64,000 bases of DNA from an uncultured candidatus Porisulfidus sp. (GTDB taxonomy: Bacteria; Pseudomonadota; Gammaproteobacteria; Poriferisulfidales; Oxydemutatoraceae): positions 960,001-1,024,000 of the forward strand of contig OZ244052.1 in assembly GCA_965215125.1 (NCBI GenBank), read 5' to 3'. Below the pieces are notes generated by a model that did not search any database, was not told the origin of the DNA, and was given only the letters and a program-made list of their open reading frames with translations. Shown here piece by piece: positions 16,005 through 31,838 of the stretch (positions are counted from its first letter, which is position 1; each line of letters begins with the position of its first letter). A program made the translations under genes and the position numbers.

Positions 16005-16180
16005 GTGACCACCCCGTCAGGCTGCGCCTGCCACCCCTCCATAGGAGGGGAATGTACCGTCCCTACAGTTCGTGGGTACTTTTTCAACAGCCCCAAGTTC
16101 TGCATAATGTTACGCCGACTGACCTATCAGGCGGACATGCCAGTCCGCCCCTACTGGCTCAATCGGCGGTTCTATTGCGC
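16005..16180 (-). repeat. Mosaic repeat including an empty REP copy of the IS110 target
   Basis: Module A reversed; AGGCGGACATGCCAGTCCGCCCCTAC nested in module C. Confidence 0.85.
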
Positions 16181-28820: not shown

Positions 28821-29035
28821 CCGTCCCGCCCTCGCACGATTAACGCGTCCATCCATTGGTTTATGGGAGTTAAAACCGGGTGGCGCATGGCAGTCTCTGC
28901 AACTCATCCATTTTTTGGGTACCGTTCGTCGGAAATGCGAAACAGCACCACATCGCCCATTTTATGATCCAACCATGATTAGACGGCTTGCTATGATGCG
29001 GGCTCTTTCTTATAATTCAACTTAAGAGGTTAAAA

Positions 29036-29527
29036 ATGGAAAATATAGAGAATGTAGACAACTTAACGATTGAAACTATTTACAAAATGGTGCTTGAAAT
29101 GAAGTCAAAGCTGGACTTTCTAGAATCGGAAACGCATACCCCACAATCGGACAAGGCAGGTTTATACATGGAAAGTATAGAACCGAGATTAAGTAAGGTT
29201 GAAGCCGACATTGCAGAAATGAAAACCGATATAGCAGTTATGAAAGCTGAGATGGAAGATATAAAACTAAGACTAAGCAAAGTTGAAGCCGATATCGTAG
29301 ACATAAAAGCTGAAATGGTAGTTATGAAAACCGATATAGCGGTTATGAAAGCCGATATAGAAAGCATGAAACTGAGACTAAGCAAGGTTGAAACCGGCAT
29401 TGCAGACATCAAAGCAGAACAATTTAAATTCAGAGATGACATCTATAAATGGGGTTTAGCGTTAGCCGCCAGCATTATTGTTTCGGTAAGTTCTATTGTT
29501 AGTTTGGTGGTGATTTTTGCAAACTAA
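29036..29527 (+). CDS. Heptad-repeat coiled-coil protein with C-terminal TM anchor (Bdr/DUF1640-like), copy 1
   Basis: K(A/T)DIAVM and LSKVEAD heptads; hydrophobic tail. Confidence 0.75.
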   Translation: MENIENVDNLTIETIYKMVLEMKSKLDFLESETHTPQSDKAGLYMESIEPRLSKVEADIAEMKTDIAVMKAEMEDIKLRLSKVEADIVDIKAEMVVMKTDIAVMKADIESMKLRLSKVETGIADIKAEQFKFRDDIYKWGLALAASIIVSVSSIVSLVVIFAN

Positions 29528-29658
29528 CTCCCAATCCTCCCAGATATAAATGTAAATTATGAATGTAGGGGCGGACTGGCATGATGCCTTATTAAAAATC
29601 AAGCCGTTTTATTCATTTTTTATCTCCTTTTGTGAGTATCGATTTAGGACGCAAATGC

Positions 29659-30633
29659 TCAACAATAATTCGTGTCAAACGGTTGCTTGTGCGTGGTGAC
29701 CCCATAAATAATACGCGTGAGCTTATGAGCGCAAGCAACAATAATCTGCTTTTTAGTTAACTCCGGACGCCGCCGACTTAATTGGTCGGCAAATGCACGG
29801 ATGGTTAGGTTATGCCGACGTGCCGAGAGTGCTGCCATAAATAGGAGGGTGCGCAGGTCGGCATTGCCCTGTTTAGAGATGGGCGTGGGCGATGCGCAGT
29901 TGCCGGATTGCTTGTGCTTGGGCGTGATGCCGATATAGGCGGCGAGTTGCTTTGGATGGCGAAACGTATTATCATCCAGTACTGCACACAGGGCAGCCGC
30001 AGTTTGAGTTCCGATTCCAGGAATGGAACACAGCAACTGGTGAAGCTGTGTGAGGTGCTCGTCTTGAGCGATGATTTTGTCCATTGAGGCATTAATCTTA
30101 TCGATCTGCTTCTCATGGTTCTTCAGGCTAGTGGCTGCCACCTTTTTTTGCTTCGCATCGCGCAGGGTATTAGCGCAATTGCTTAACATCGTACAACACT
30201 TGACTAATTCCCTGCGCCATTTCAGTGCGTCGCGCAAAGCTTGCACAGCCGGTGAGGGCTTTTGCCAATTGTTTTCAGGCGGGATAGCAAATACGAAGCG
30301 TGCGATGATACGCGCATCCACGCGATCGGTTTTACTGCGTATGCCGAGCGAGTCGCGGAATCTAGCGATCAGCACCGGTGCTGCCACGATGATTGGATGC
30401 CCGGCATCATAGCCGGCCATGCACAGGTCTAGTTCAAGACCGCCGGTCGCCTCAACACAGATGCGACACTGCTGTGCGCGGTGTTTGCTCGTCCAAGCTA
30501 ACAACTGTTTGATGCCTTGGGCATCACTACTAAATTGTTGCTCGGCAAAACTATTATCAGTGAATAATAGAGCCGCCTCTAAAGTGTCTTTAGAGACATC
30601 AACGCCAATCGTGACGGGTTGTTTGTTTTCCAT
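29659..30633 (-). CDS. IS110 DEDD bridge recombinase
   Basis: IGVDVSK, CVEATG, KTDRVDA, SIPGIG, KQSG catalytic Ser. Confidence 0.95.
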   Translation of the reverse strand: MENKQPVTIGVDVSKDTLEAALLFTDNSFAEQQFSSDAQGIKQLLAWTSKHRAQQCRICVEATGGLELDLCMAGYDAGHPIIVAAPVLIARFRDSLGIRSKTDRVDARIIARFVFAIPPENNWQKPSPAVQALRDALKWRRELVKCCTMLSNCANTLRDAKQKKVAATSLKNHEKQIDKINASMDKIIAQDEHLTQLHQLLCSIPGIGTQTAAALCAVLDDNTFRHPKQLAAYIGITPKHKQSGNCASPTPISKQGNADLRTLLFMAALSARRHNLTIRAFADQLSRRRPELTKKQIIVACAHKLTRIIYGVTTHKQPFDTNYC

Positions 30634-30694
30634 AATAAATTACTCCATAAGGGTTGGTTAATGAATGAAATACTAGGTATCAAACACAGTTTAG

Positions 30695-30895
30695 GAAAGT
30701 ATGACTACGCCGCCCAAACAGATGAATACGAGATCTAAAGTCCCAAGCTGCCTTTCGAGCTCTATAGTCATAACGCCGGAGGAGTGCTTTTCATACCATC
30801 AGGCTTTAATGCCTCGTCCGTCCTGCAGCGTGTCTCCTCCGACTTCCTAGGCACTGCATCTGCCTAAGCGTTTATCTTATATCAAATAAGCCAGG
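30695..30895 (-). ncRNA. Putative bridge RNA of the IS110 (ends approximate)
   Basis: Two stem-closed loops containing segments that match the target and donor sites. Confidence 0.75.
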
Positions 30896-30909
30896 GTTTA
30901 ATATATCTG

Positions 30910-31110
30910 TCTGCCCTTAAGTGCCGTTCTGCACAGCCGTAATCGCTCGCGCCGTATGGTTTTGGTTTCCATAAATTAACTGGTGTACGATTTTATTTGT
31001 GCAAACGCAGCACGTTACAGTTCTGCATAACGTTACGCCGATTGATCGGGCGGACATGTTAGTCCGCCCCTACAAGCGCAATCGGCGGTTCTATTTTTCA
31101 ACAGCCCCAA
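30910..31110 (-). repeat. Mosaic repeat (REP right arm, MITE parts, REP within module C)
   Basis: Shared modules with the other mosaics. Confidence 0.8.
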
Positions 31111-31325
31111 CCTTAACCCACTCGCACGATTAACGCGTCCATCCATTGGTTTATGGGAGTTAAAACCGGGTGGCGCATGGCAGTCTCTGCAACTCATCCA
31201 TTATTTTGATACCGTTCGTCGGAAATGCGAAACAGCACCACATCGCCCATTTTATGATCCAACCATGATTAGACGGCTTGCTATGACGCAAGCTCTTTCT
31301 TATAATTCAACTTAAGAGGTTAAAA

Positions 31326-31838
31326 ATGGAAAATATCGAGAACGCAGACAACTTAACGATTGAAACTATTTATAAAATGGTGCTTGAAATGAAGTCAAAG
31401 CTGGACTTTCTAGAATCGGAAACGCATGCCCCACAATCTGACAAGGCAGGTTTATACATGGAAAGTATAGATCTAAGACTAAGCAATGTTGATGCTGACA
31501 TCGTAGATGTGAAAACCGATATAGCAGTTATGAAATCTGAGATGGAAGATATAAAACTAAGACTAAGCAAAGTTGAAGCCGATATCGTAGACATGAAAGC
31601 TGAAATGGTAGTTATGAAAACCGAGATAGCGGTTATAAAAGCCGATATAGAAAGCATGAAACTGAAACTAAGCAAGGTTGAAACCGACATCGCAGAAATG
31701 AGAAAGGACATTGCAGACATCAAAGCAGAACAATTTAAATTCAGAGATGACATCTATAAATGGGGTTTAGCATTAGCCGCCAGCATTATTGTTTCGGTAA
31801 GTTCTATTGTTGGTTTGGTGGTGATTTTTGCAAACTAA
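31326..31838 (+). CDS. Heptad-repeat coiled-coil TM protein, copy 2 (one extra heptad)
   Basis: Near-identical to 29036-29527, including ~205 bp of upstream DNA. Confidence 0.75.
   Translation: MENIENADNLTIETIYKMVLEMKSKLDFLESETHAPQSDKAGLYMESIDLRLSNVDADIVDVKTDIAVMKSEMEDIKLRLSKVEADIVDMKAEMVVMKTEIAVIKADIESMKLKLSKVETDIAEMRKDIADIKAEQFKFRDDIYKWGLALAASIIVSVSSIVGLVVIFAN

What the first reader, a model, noticed from the sequence alone, without database searches (positions are those of the whole stretch)
29565..30920. IS110 bridge-RNA system apparently programmed against the genome's own REP hairpin (CA core)
Seen: the IS110 splits a REP hairpin. In element orientation the target is GGGCAGA-CA-TGCC and the circle (donor) junction is AAGGCAT-CA-GATA. 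The upstream non-coding end forms two stem-closed loops. Loop 1 holds GGACGGAC (30823-30816; 7/8 to the REP consensus GGGCGGAC) and GGTATG (30797-30792; pairs CATGCC via one G-U). Loop 2 holds AAGGCAGC (30754-30747; 7/8 to donor AAGGCATC) and CATCTG (30724-30719; 5/6 to the complement of CAGATA). The DEDD residues and catalytic Ser are intact. Established: this is the IS621 bridge-RNA architecture, but IS621 uses a CT core and E. coli REPs. Inference: an independent programmable recombinase with a different core and target repeat; empty candidate targets lie at 16129-16141, ~31050 and ~1060.
Basis: partly seen in the sequence, partly recalled or inferred. Interest (0 to 1): 0.88.

Follow-up and report, generated by a model that had tools for sequence, protein, structure and literature searches.

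The report
REP-targeting IS110 bridge-RNA insertion sequence

Summary
Window 29582-30909 (minus strand) is a 1326-bp IS110-family element. Its recombinase is intact and its left end encodes a two-loop non-coding RNA. All 8 full copies in this genome sit at GGGC(G/A)GA-CA | element | TGC.. or TAT.., inside the loop of a REP hairpin. Across 25 distinct insertions in four genomes of the genus, the guides change with the sites. The right target guide pairs at 172 of 175 positions. The right donor guide switches U/C exactly when the element's end switches A/G. Relatives that sit in a second REP type (GGGAGGGC) carry a rewritten left target guide, and occur only in genomes that have that REP. A covariance model finds the same RNA fold upstream of 30-36%-identical recombinases in 8 of 26 distant loci, with compensatory changes in 37 of 44 pairs. 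Those relatives use a CT core; this clade uses CA. It is therefore a real, recently active bridge-RNA element. Bridge RNAs, REP targeting and natural retargeting are already published. RNA expression and recombination were not tested. Interest is moderate.

The parts
29582..30907 (-). The insertion sequence, counting one copy of the CA core (1326 bp). The left core CA is at 30909-30908 and the right core CA at 29583-29582.
   Evidence: Boundaries come from 8 copies in different flanks. The element length of 1326 is.
29659..30633 (-). IS110-family DEDD/Ser recombinase gene, 324 aa, intact.
   Evidence: Pfam PF01548 and PF02371. NF033542 'IS110 family RNA-guided transposase', 216 bits. PDB ISCro4 E 1.2e-44 and IS621 E 2.1e-43, with D12, E61, D103, D106 and S243 aligned to the IS621 catalytic residues.
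30699..30870 (-). Predicted bridge RNA body of 172 nt: 5' stem-loop 30868-30846, target-binding loop module 30843-30774, donor-binding loop module 30771-30699.
   Evidence: Consensus fold. Covariance model R1. Hits upstream of the recombinase gene in 8 of 26 distant loci. 95.6% of cells paired and 37 of 44 pairs with compensatory change, against 35-44% paired in slid controls.
30815..30823 (-). Left target guide GGACGGACG, same sense as the left target plus core GGGC(G/A)GA-CA.
   Evidence: one A.C mismatch at position 3 in all GGGCGGA-type classes, and G.T wobble at core position 2. The segment is rewritten to GAGAGGAUU or UCGAGGGCU in relatives that sit in GGGAGGG-CA REPs.
30790..30798 (-). 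Right target guide UGGUAUG (30798-30792), antisense to CA-TGCCA with one G.U. It is followed by AA (30791-30790) at the handshake-guide position.
   Evidence: the right target guide pairs at 172 of 175 cells over 25 insertions; target position +6 covaries best with 30797. The handshake assignment is by analogy to IS621 (PMC11208158 passages).
30746..30754 (-). Left donor guide AAGGCAGCU, same sense as the right-end AAGGCAT-CA.
   Evidence: mismatches occur only at position 7 (22 of 25) and core position 2 (25 of 25). It aligns column for column with ACGGUAUCU of a CT-core relative whose donor is ACGGTAT-CT.
30717..30724 (-). Right donor guide CAUCUG (30724-30719), antisense to CA-GATA, plus UU (30718-30717) at the handshake position.
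   Evidence: donor position +4 (A/G) pairs with 30722 (U/C) in 100% of pairs; 144 of 150 cells are Watson-Crick.
30908..30916 (-). Left half of the split REP hairpin plus the core: GGGCAGA-CA.
29568..29581 (-). Right half of the split REP: loop remainder TGCCA and 3' arm GTCCGCCCC.
29597..29602 (-). -35-like hexamer TTGATT in the right end. It lies 17 bp from the -10 only when the ends are joined.
   Evidence: Sequence and a script scan of the computed junction (that junction lacked one core base, so its printed spacing of 16 equals 17). Subfamily B has TTGACT.
30900..30905 (-). -10-like hexamer TATATT in the left end.
   Evidence: In the integrated state the hexamer at the -35 position is AACGGC, which I read.
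29591..29595 (-). Subterminal inverted repeat arm TTAAT. Its partner ATTAA is at 30902-30898. The two arms bracket the 14-nt donor AAGGCAT-CA-GATAT.
   Evidence: Sequence. A short subterminal inverted repeat flanking the programmable donor is described for the IS110 group (PMC11208160 passages).
16129..16141 (+). Empty REP with the same right target as the occupied site (GGCGGA-CA-TGCCA).

Best explanation
This is an autonomous, recently active IS110-group insertion sequence. Its left end encodes a bridge RNA. By analogy with IS621, excision would give a circle whose RE-LE junction assembles a sigma-70 promoter (TTGATT-17-TATATT) that transcribes the left end. The RNA folds into a 5' stem-loop and two internal loops. 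[quoted passage not shown] In the second loop, AAGGCAGC and CAUCUG would recognise the element's own junction AAGGCAT-CA-GATA in the same way. The DEDD/Ser recombinase would then exchange strands at the shared CA, which places the element between the 5' arm and the loop of a REP hairpin. Shown here: the anatomy, the site specificity in all copies, guide-target and guide-donor covariation, conservation of the fold, and intact catalytic residues. Inferred: transcription, the circle intermediate, the pairing in the ribonucleoprotein, and the chemistry.
For: (1) All 8 full copies in this 2.22-Mb genome lie at GGGC(G/A)GA-CA|...|TGC(C/A)A or TATCA inside REP hairpins, with at least three unrelated outer flanks. 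Four copies are 99.5-100% identical, so movement was recent. (2) Over 25 distinct insertions in 4 genomes of the genus, the pairing counts are as follows. Right target guide: 168 Watson-Crick, 4 wobble and 3 mismatched of 175 cells. Right donor guide: 144 of 150. Left donor guide: 178 of 225, with mismatches only at positions 7 and 9. Left target guide: 149 Watson-Crick, 26 wobble and 50 mismatched of 225. (3) Covariation. REP loops CAA, CTA and TTA go with guides UUG, UAG and UAA. Donor CAGATA or CAGGTA goes with UAUCUG or UACCUG. Left target C-to-A at position 4 goes with guide C-to-A. The element's own guide set is best or tied among the six sets for 22 of 25 insertions. (4) Elements with guides for GGGAGGG-CA-TGTTA occur only in G016 and G017, which hold 178 and 152 REPs of that type. 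G000 and G018 hold none. (5) The first 200 nt of the left end stay 88-92% identical between elements whose recombinase genes are 51-67% identical in the central bins. Variable columns are enriched in the guides: 16 of 35 against 24 of 138 elsewhere, Fisher p 0.0012. (6) Model R1 finds the same fold directly upstream of 30-36%-identical recombinase genes in 8 of 26 distant loci. 37 of 44 pairs show compensatory change, 0 of 500 shuffles reach the observed values, and slid controls pair at 35-44% against 95.6%. Where I could map the ends of those relatives (G074 with 5 copies, G227 with 2), the aligned guide columns read their own CT-core donor and target. (7) The recombinase matches IS621 and ISCro4 with all five catalytic residues. 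(8) A junction promoter and a 5-bp subterminal inverted repeat bracket a 14-nt donor. (9) The ordered four-guide match is reached by 0 of 1000 shuffles.
Against: No RNA evidence exists, and no circle junction was seen in the contigs laid. Single-sequence folding energy is unremarkable (z -1.1 to -1.3). Within the genus the stems barely vary, with 1 compensatory pair of 56. Structural support therefore rests on a model-fitted alignment of distant relatives, which leans towards the model. The left target guide is imperfect. It has an A.C mismatch at position 3 in every GGGCGGA-type class, and the GGGAGGG-type guide GAGAGGAUU has 3 mismatches and 1 wobble of 9. The insertions are related by descent, so the cell counts overstate the number of independent events; there are six guide classes. 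In 3 of 25 insertions another co-resident guide set fits better than the element's own.
Confidence: 0.9

Rival explanations
1. The window's subfamily (class A) has a partly decayed donor loop. It moves only because co-resident class B elements, whose guides fit perfectly, supply bridge RNA or recombinase in trans.
For: Class B reads AAGGCATC, TATCTG, TTGCATG and GGACGGACA, perfect or nearly so. Class A has extra mismatches. A class A copy sits in a CATGCAA site that fits the class B guide better, and a class B copy sits in a CATGCCA site that fits class A better. Two recombinase-disrupted copies were nevertheless duplicated, so action in trans does occur.
Against: The class A form of the donor loop (AAGGCAGC) is the majority form in 22 of 25 insertions. 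This includes genomes G016 and G017, where no AAGGCATC form was seen among the loci sampled. Position 7 of the left donor is reported as mismatch-tolerant in IS621 (PMC11208160 passage). Class A has the most identical copies in this genome.
Confidence: 0.15
2. Site choice is made by the protein recognising the REP hairpin. The guide-like matches in the left end are by-products and do not guide.
For: The target is a structured repeat. For ISPpu10, a target stem-loop contributes to recognition beyond base pairing (preprint 10.64898/2026.03.19.712850, abstract and section 7). The left target guide is imperfect.
Against: The variable REP loop bases covary with the right target guide, and the element's own end covaries with the right donor guide. 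A protein-only model does not predict either. The guide columns are homologous to those of CT-core relatives that read their own sites. A structural contribution from the hairpin could still add to RNA guidance.
Confidence: 0.04
3. The REP-like words in the left end are captured REP debris or chance matches.
For: REPs are abundant, at 34-52 hairpins depending on the stringency used. Nested and truncated copies exist.
Against: 0 of 1000 shuffles reach the ordered four-guide score. The words sit in unpaired sides of conserved internal loops. They change in step with the host REP type in sister genomes.
Confidence: 0.01

Closest known systems
IS621 (E. coli) and its bridge RNA; solved structures 8WT6-8WT9
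   Same: The recombinase matches at E 2.1e-43 with all catalytic residues aligned. Both have a long left end and a short right end, and a junction promoter. Both have a 5' stem-loop plus a target-binding and a donor-binding internal loop. The 5' sides are same-sense and the 3' sides antisense, and the core is included in the pairing. The left donor guide is mismatch-tolerant at position 7. An A follows the right target guide and can pair with donor position 7, which matches the handshake logic (PMC11208160 and PMC11208158 passages). Both target REP.
   Different: The core is CA, not CT. The antisense guides end in UG instead of AG, while the left donor guide keeps CU. The right target guide is 7 nt, against 4 nt natively in IS621. 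The recombinase is only about a third identical by eye in the alignment, where no percentage is printed. The crossover lies between the REP 5' arm and the loop, so the element splits the hairpin. In the CT-core relative I mapped (G074), the hairpin lies wholly upstream of the core. The exact IS621 position within its REP is recalled, not checked.
ISCro4 / IS622 (Citrobacter rodentium); PDB 9T56
   Same: It is the best solved-structure match (E 1.2e-44) and has the same domain order.
   Different: It has a CT core (preprint 10.1101/2025.05.14.653916 passages) and a different host and target.
ISPpu10 and ISPpu9 (Pseudomonas putida), REP-targeting IS110 elements
   Same: There are multiple copies, all in one REP family. 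The target carries a stem-loop (the ISPpu9 abstract was seen only in the listing).
   Different: ISPpu10 duplicates CT, and its stem-loop is a 5' extension that pairs with the left target. Here the left target is the 5' arm and its partner arm lies beyond the right target.
ISEc11/ISXne4 and ISEc21/ISMch6 natural redirection (seekRNA paper, PMC11187229)
   Same: Close relatives keep the RNA stems and swap the target-matching stretches to a new site (passages). The same is seen here between GGGCGGA-type and GGGAGGG-type REPs.
   Different: Here the switch tracks which REP family the host genome carries. The loop bases are also fine-tuned within one REP family.

Membership tests
IS110 family, IS110 group (bridge-RNA elements) | Recombinase with an N-terminal DEDD RuvC-like domain and a C-terminal Tnp domain carrying the catalytic Ser | tested here: met
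   PF01548 and PF02371. NF033542 above its cut-off. D12, E61, D103, D106 and S243-G244 align to the IS621 residues.
IS110 family, IS110 group (bridge-RNA elements) | No long terminal inverted repeats; a short core shared by target and donor; no duplication beyond the core | tested here: met
   8 copies in G000 and 25 insertions in the genus all show CA at both junctions and nothing further shared.
IS110 family, IS110 group (bridge-RNA elements) | Long left end and short right end, with the non-coding RNA in the left end | tested here: met
   The left end is 274 nt and the right end about 75 nt. The model hit lies in the left end.
IS110 family, IS110 group (bridge-RNA elements) | RNA with two stem-closed internal loops, conserved in relatives | tested here: met
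   The alignment was fitted to the model, and the slid controls are much lower.
IS110 family, IS110 group (bridge-RNA elements) | [quoted passage not shown] | tested here: met
IS110 family, IS110 group (bridge-RNA elements) | Guide positions covary with target and donor across relatives | tested here: met
   There are six guide classes, and related copies are not independent.
IS110 family, IS110 group (bridge-RNA elements) | Sigma-70 promoter assembled across the RE-LE junction | tested here: met
   TTGATT-17-TATATT, a match to the consensus only. Its activity was not tested.
IS110 family, IS110 group (bridge-RNA elements) | Short subterminal inverted repeat flanking a 14-nt donor | tested here: met
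   TTAAT ... ATTAA brackets AAGGCAT-CA-GATAT.
IS110 family, IS110 group (bridge-RNA elements) | Circular excised intermediate and transcription of the bridge RNA | not testable with these tools
   No run on record as RNA holds the element. Contigs of 4 DNA runs show no RE-LE joint, and contigs cannot show absence.
IS110 family, IS110 group (bridge-RNA elements) | RNA-dependent, reprogrammable recombination | not testable with these tools
   This needs a plasmid or in vitro assay.
IS621/IS622 subgroup | CT core dinucleotide, with guides reading CU and AG | tested here: not met
   The core is CA. The right target and right donor guides end in UG. Seven distant relatives with a model hit (of the eight) read AG at the core-pairing end of the right target guide; L091 was unclear.

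The most novel reading that the evidence does not exclude
This genus-restricted clade is a natural bridge-recombinase lineage that has moved the second core base from T to A. Only the two antisense guides (right target and right donor, AG to UG) have compensated. The same-sense guides keep U, G or A at that position. This would imply that bottom-strand pairing at core position 2 is dispensable in this lineage, and that a natural core orthogonal to CT exists. The bridge-RNA module also behaves as an exchangeable cassette. Recombinant copies join one subfamily's left end to another's recombinase gene. Some insertions fit a co-resident subfamily's guide better than their own. A recombinase-dead copy carrying a 1.1-kb IS481-like passenger was moved in trans.
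Probability: 0.35. Interest if true: 0.55.

Novelty: new member of a known kind. Interest (0 to 1): 0.4.

Why it matters
The core dinucleotide is a stated limit on bridge-recombinase targeting (review PMC13604230 passage). Engineered cores other than CT work less well, and only first-base changes (AT, GT, TT) appear in the passages I read (PMC11208160). Orthogonal cores (CT against GT) are already used to stop cross-talk between two bridge RNAs (preprint 10.64898/2026.04.29.721476 passages). A natural, multi-copy and apparently active CA-core orthologue is a ready-made candidate for a second orthogonal core. It comes with six natural guide variants and their sites. For genome biology, it is a clean case of an insertion sequence tracking its host's REP families, down to the hairpin loop bases.

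Tried and rejected
Rfam: no family matched the left end at E up to 1. The only hit in 29000-31500 was a chance SNORD104 match at 18.3 bits against a gathering score of 40.

RNA evidence: no RNA holder was listed for the element.

Laying contigs of 4 DNA runs (X1, X2, X6, X7) gave no RE-LE circle joint and no contig bridging an empty site at this locus. Loose ends at 29564 and at 30908/30909 only show the element and the REP repeat in other contexts. I draw nothing from the uncovered parts.

The search for related loci on genome contigs gave only 3 loci, all in one sister genome.

The plasmid collection holds no relative above 35% identity among the 12 rows listed; the search reached its 5000-record limit.

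A full-text search for 'CA core' together with IS110 and bridge RNA found 0 papers. This does not show that CA cores are unreported. The supplementary tables of PMC11208160 and of the 72-orthologue screen were not available to me and may list such cores.

Handshake pairing of the bases after the right donor guide is consistent in classes A-D and F but not in the single class E copy. I leave it as an analogy.

I considered a captured-REP or chance origin of the guide words and rejected it.

Full report
WHAT IS THERE. Window 29582-30907 on the minus strand is a 1326-bp element, bounded by CA on both sides (30909-30908 and 29583-29582). It carries one ORF, 29659-30633(-), of 324 aa. The ORF hits Pfam PF01548 (DEDD_Tnp_IS110, E 1.4e-20) and PF02371 (Transposase_20, E 1.3e-24). 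It also hits NCBIfam NF033542, 'IS110 family RNA-guided transposase', at 216 bits against a cut-off of 140. Its closest solved structures are the ISCro4 transposase (E 1.2e-44) and the IS621 transposase (E 2.1e-43). In the printed alignment, D12, E61, D103, D106 and S243-G244 stand opposite IS621 D11, E60, D102, D105 and S241-G242. Residue numbers allow for two extra N-terminal residues in the PDB chain, and the roles are taken from PMC11208158 passages. The catalytic serine is the S of 'QSGN', not the S of 'ISKQG'.

THE OBSERVATION. The flanks read GGGCAGA-CA on the left and CA-TGCCA-GTCCGCCCC on the right, so an uninterrupted site would be a REP hairpin GGGCAGAC-ATGCCA-GTCCGCCC. The left end folds into a 5' stem-loop and two stem-closed internal loops. 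The folding energy of the single sequence is not unusual (z -1.3 and -1.1). An ordered four-guide match scores 27 of 29 with wobble allowed. None of 1000 dinucleotide shuffles of the 274-nt left end reaches that; the shuffle mean is 23.1 and the maximum 26. I chose the guide lengths after seeing the data, so this test is rough.

ALL COPIES SIT IN THE SAME PLACE. The genome is one 2.22-Mb contig. It holds 8 full copies. Four are 99.5-100% identical to the window's, and four are 79-83% identical at the DNA level. All 8 read GGGC(G/A)GA-CA | GATATATT ... AAGGCAT-CA | TGC(C/A)A or TATCA followed by GTC(C/T)GCCCC (one copy reads ATCCGCCCC), with at least three unrelated outer flanks. Model R1 finds 8 full-length RNA genes and 2 degraded ones in the genome. 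The genome has 52 intact REP hairpins of this type at up to 1 mismatch per arm, or 34 at up to 1 mismatch overall.

TWO SUBFAMILIES RESOLVE THE IMPERFECT MATCHES. The window's subfamily (class A) reads GGACGGACG, UGGUAUG, AAGGCAGC and CAUCUG at the four guide positions. A co-resident subfamily (class B, 3 copies) reads GGACGGACA, UUGCAUG, AAGGCAUC and UAUCUG at the same positions. Those are exact for the donor AAGGCAT-CA-GATA and for the target CA-TGCAA.

GUIDES CHANGE WITH THE SITES. Four other genomes of the genus have relatives, and none of 14 genomes from the other five genera of the family has one at E 1e-20. From 25 distinct insertions with both ends in hand in G000, G016, G017 and G018, I read guides and sites at fixed scaffold positions. 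The two interrupted G000 copies are not in this count.

The per-guide results are these:
- Right target guide: 168 Watson-Crick, 4 wobble and 3 mismatched of 175 cells. REP loops CAA, CTA, TTA and CCA go with UUG, UAG, UAA and GGU-type guides.
- Right donor guide: 144 of 150 cells pair. Elements whose left end begins GGTATA have UACCUG, and those beginning GATATA have (U/C)AUCUG.
- Left donor guide: 178 of 225 cells pair. The mismatches fall only at position 7 (22 of 25) and at the second core base (25 of 25).
- Left target guide: 149 Watson-Crick, 26 wobble and 50 mismatched of 225 cells.

An unbiased column-by-column scan puts the best partner of target position +6 at window 30797 (pairing 0.90). 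It puts the partner of donor position +4 at 30722 (pairing 1.00), and left-target position 4 at 30820 (identity 0.90). All three lie on the expected diagonals. With only two left-target types, several columns tie by descent. The element's own guide set is best or tied among the six sets for 22 of 25 insertions.

THE GUIDE FOLLOWS THE HOST'S REPEAT. Relatives with 59-66% identical recombinases in G016 and G017 sit in a different REP, GGGAGGG-CA-TGTTA-GCCCTCCC. Their left target guide is rewritten to GAGAGGAUU or UCGAGGGCU, and their right target guide to UAACAUG or UAGCAUG. That REP type has 178 and 152 copies in G016 and G017, and none in G000 or G018. The GGGCGGAC type has 34, 45, 107 and 219 copies in G000, G016, G017 and G018.

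THE RNA SCAFFOLD IS MORE CONSERVED THAN THE PROTEIN GENE. The first 200 nt of the left end stay 88-92% identical between the window's element and the G016/G017 class F elements, while their central recombinase bins fall to 51-57%. Within the 173-column RNA alignment, 16 of 35 guide columns vary against 24 of 138 elsewhere (Fisher p 0.0012), and 11 of 88 paired columns vary.

THE FOLD IS CONSERVED IN DISTANT RELATIVES. A class-wide search found recombinase relatives in 29 of 400 genomes at E 1e-30, at 30-36% identity. I gave 26 of the 28 new loci to the model, leaving out the two from genomes flagged unpublished. Model R1 was built from 9 genus sequences with the structure minus three pairs between guide bases. 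It hit full length, directly upstream of the recombinase match, in 8 of the 26 loci (E 2.7e-8 to 5.2e-4), with one further partial hit. On the model-fitted alignment of 6 genus and 8 distant sequences, 95.6% of cells pair and 37 of 44 pairs show changes on both sides. None of 500 shuffles reaches the observed values, and partners slid by 1-3 columns pair at only 35-44%. The fit to the model favours the structure, but the slid controls share that bias only in part.

THE CORE IS CA HERE AND CT IN THE RELATIVES. For two distant elements with several copies I mapped the ends. In G074 the donor is ACGGTAT-CT-TGTATC and the target GCCCAAC-CT-ACAT. In G227 the donor is ACAGTTG-CT-TGTGTC and the target ACCCACC-CT-AC. 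In the model alignment, their guide columns read ACGGUAUCU and UACAAG for the donor, and ...AACCU and UGUAG for the target. This checks that the columns I call guides are the homologous ones. Seven of the eight distant RNAs end the right target guide in AG (GUAG, UGAG or UCAG); L091 is unclear. In this clade both antisense guides end in UG. The left donor guide keeps CU, and the last base of the left target guide is G, A or U. So the T-to-A change of the second core base is compensated only on the antisense guides. In IS621 the left donor guide pairs only through the first core base (PMC11208158 passage), so the retained U is not surprising there. For the left target guide it is a departure.

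OTHER FAMILY HALLMARKS. The hexamers TTGATT (29602-29597, right end) and TATATT (30905-30900, left end) would stand 17 bp apart only across a joined RE-LE junction. Class B has TTGACT. In the integrated state the -35 position reads AACGGC. TTAAT (29595-29591) and ATTAA (30902-30898) form a 5-bp inverted repeat bracketing the 14-nt donor. This is the short subterminal repeat described for the IS110 group (PMC11208160 passage). The base after the right target guide is A in all classes and can pair with donor position 7 (T), as in IS621's handshake. The U after the right donor guide pairs with target position 7 in classes A-D, wobbles in class F and fails in the one class E copy.

GEOMETRY. Here the left target is the 5' arm of the hairpin, and the core plus right target lie in the loop, so insertion splits the REP. 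In G074 the hairpin lies wholly upstream and the left target is its 3' arm. This resembles the 5' stem-loop described for ISPpu10 targets. Whether the hairpin itself helps recognition here is open.

VERDICT. It is a bridge-RNA IS110 element aimed at the host's REP. What lowers the score is that each main idea is already in print. Bridge RNAs are predicted in most IS110 elements, with target and donor covariation over thousands of pairs (PMC11208160 passages). REPs are known as IS110 targets (same paper). Natural redirection is also published (PMC11187229 passages). NCBI's own model already names this protein an RNA-guided transposase. What remains of interest is the natural CA core with one-sided compensation, the fine tuning of the guide to hairpin loop variants, and the signs of modular and trans behaviour listed under Noticed in passing. 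RNA expression, circle formation and recombination were not tested.

Noticed in passing
G000:C1:764794-765934 and 298355-299495 (loci L048, L045); outside the window: Two of the 8 IS110 copies carry the same 1141-bp IS481-like element (NF033577, 192 bits, below its cut-off of 224). It sits at the same position in the recombinase gene with the same 5-bp duplication CTCGC. The 7 other copies of that element have other duplications. The two composite copies lie in different REPs with different flanks. The 2.47-kb recombinase-dead composite was therefore most likely moved in trans as a unit.
   Followed up: partly
G000:C1:1998228-1999590 (locus L051): This copy is a mosaic. Its first 400 nt (the bridge RNA and the start of the gene) are 99-100% identical to the window's subfamily, and the rest is 99-100% identical to subfamily B. 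A G018 copy (L044) likewise joins the left end of one subfamily to the body of another. The bridge-RNA module is exchanged by recombination.
   Followed up: partly
L034 (G000:C1:603034-604389) and L061 (G000:C1:1121635-1122997): A class A element sits in a CATGCAA site that fits the class B guide perfectly. A class B element sits in a CATGCCA site that fits the class A guide better. This may reflect guidance by a co-resident element's RNA.
   Followed up: no
G000:C1:521859-521933, 1981220-1981359, 1402490-1402598, 585642-585705, 670310-670417 and 1429610-1429805: These are left-end stubs and one internally deleted copy. For example, 45 nt of the left end sit between the two halves of a REP at 521887. 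They may be footprints of imprecise or partial excision.
   Followed up: no
L041 (G016) and L050 (G017): In each, a full element is preceded by a 76-nt or 53-nt duplicate of the left end. This fits insertion into another copy's left end at GGAGGAGA-CA or GGTAGATG-CA, followed by deletion, and would be a natural off-target.
   Followed up: no
window 30908-30977 (minus strand): About 70 nt upstream of the REP belong to a longer dispersed repeat with roughly 35 partial copies in the genome. Most copies end exactly at the CA insertion point.
   Followed up: no
window 29036-29527 (+) and 31326-31838 (+): Two near-identical paralogous ORFs (163 and 170 aa) flank the element. Each has heptad-like repeats and a hydrophobic C-terminal tail.
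   Followed up: no
G017:C2:362579-380423: Dozens of GGGCGGAC-type REPs with loop ATATGA stand in arrays at mostly 134-348-bp spacing, in two orientation blocks.
   Followed up: no
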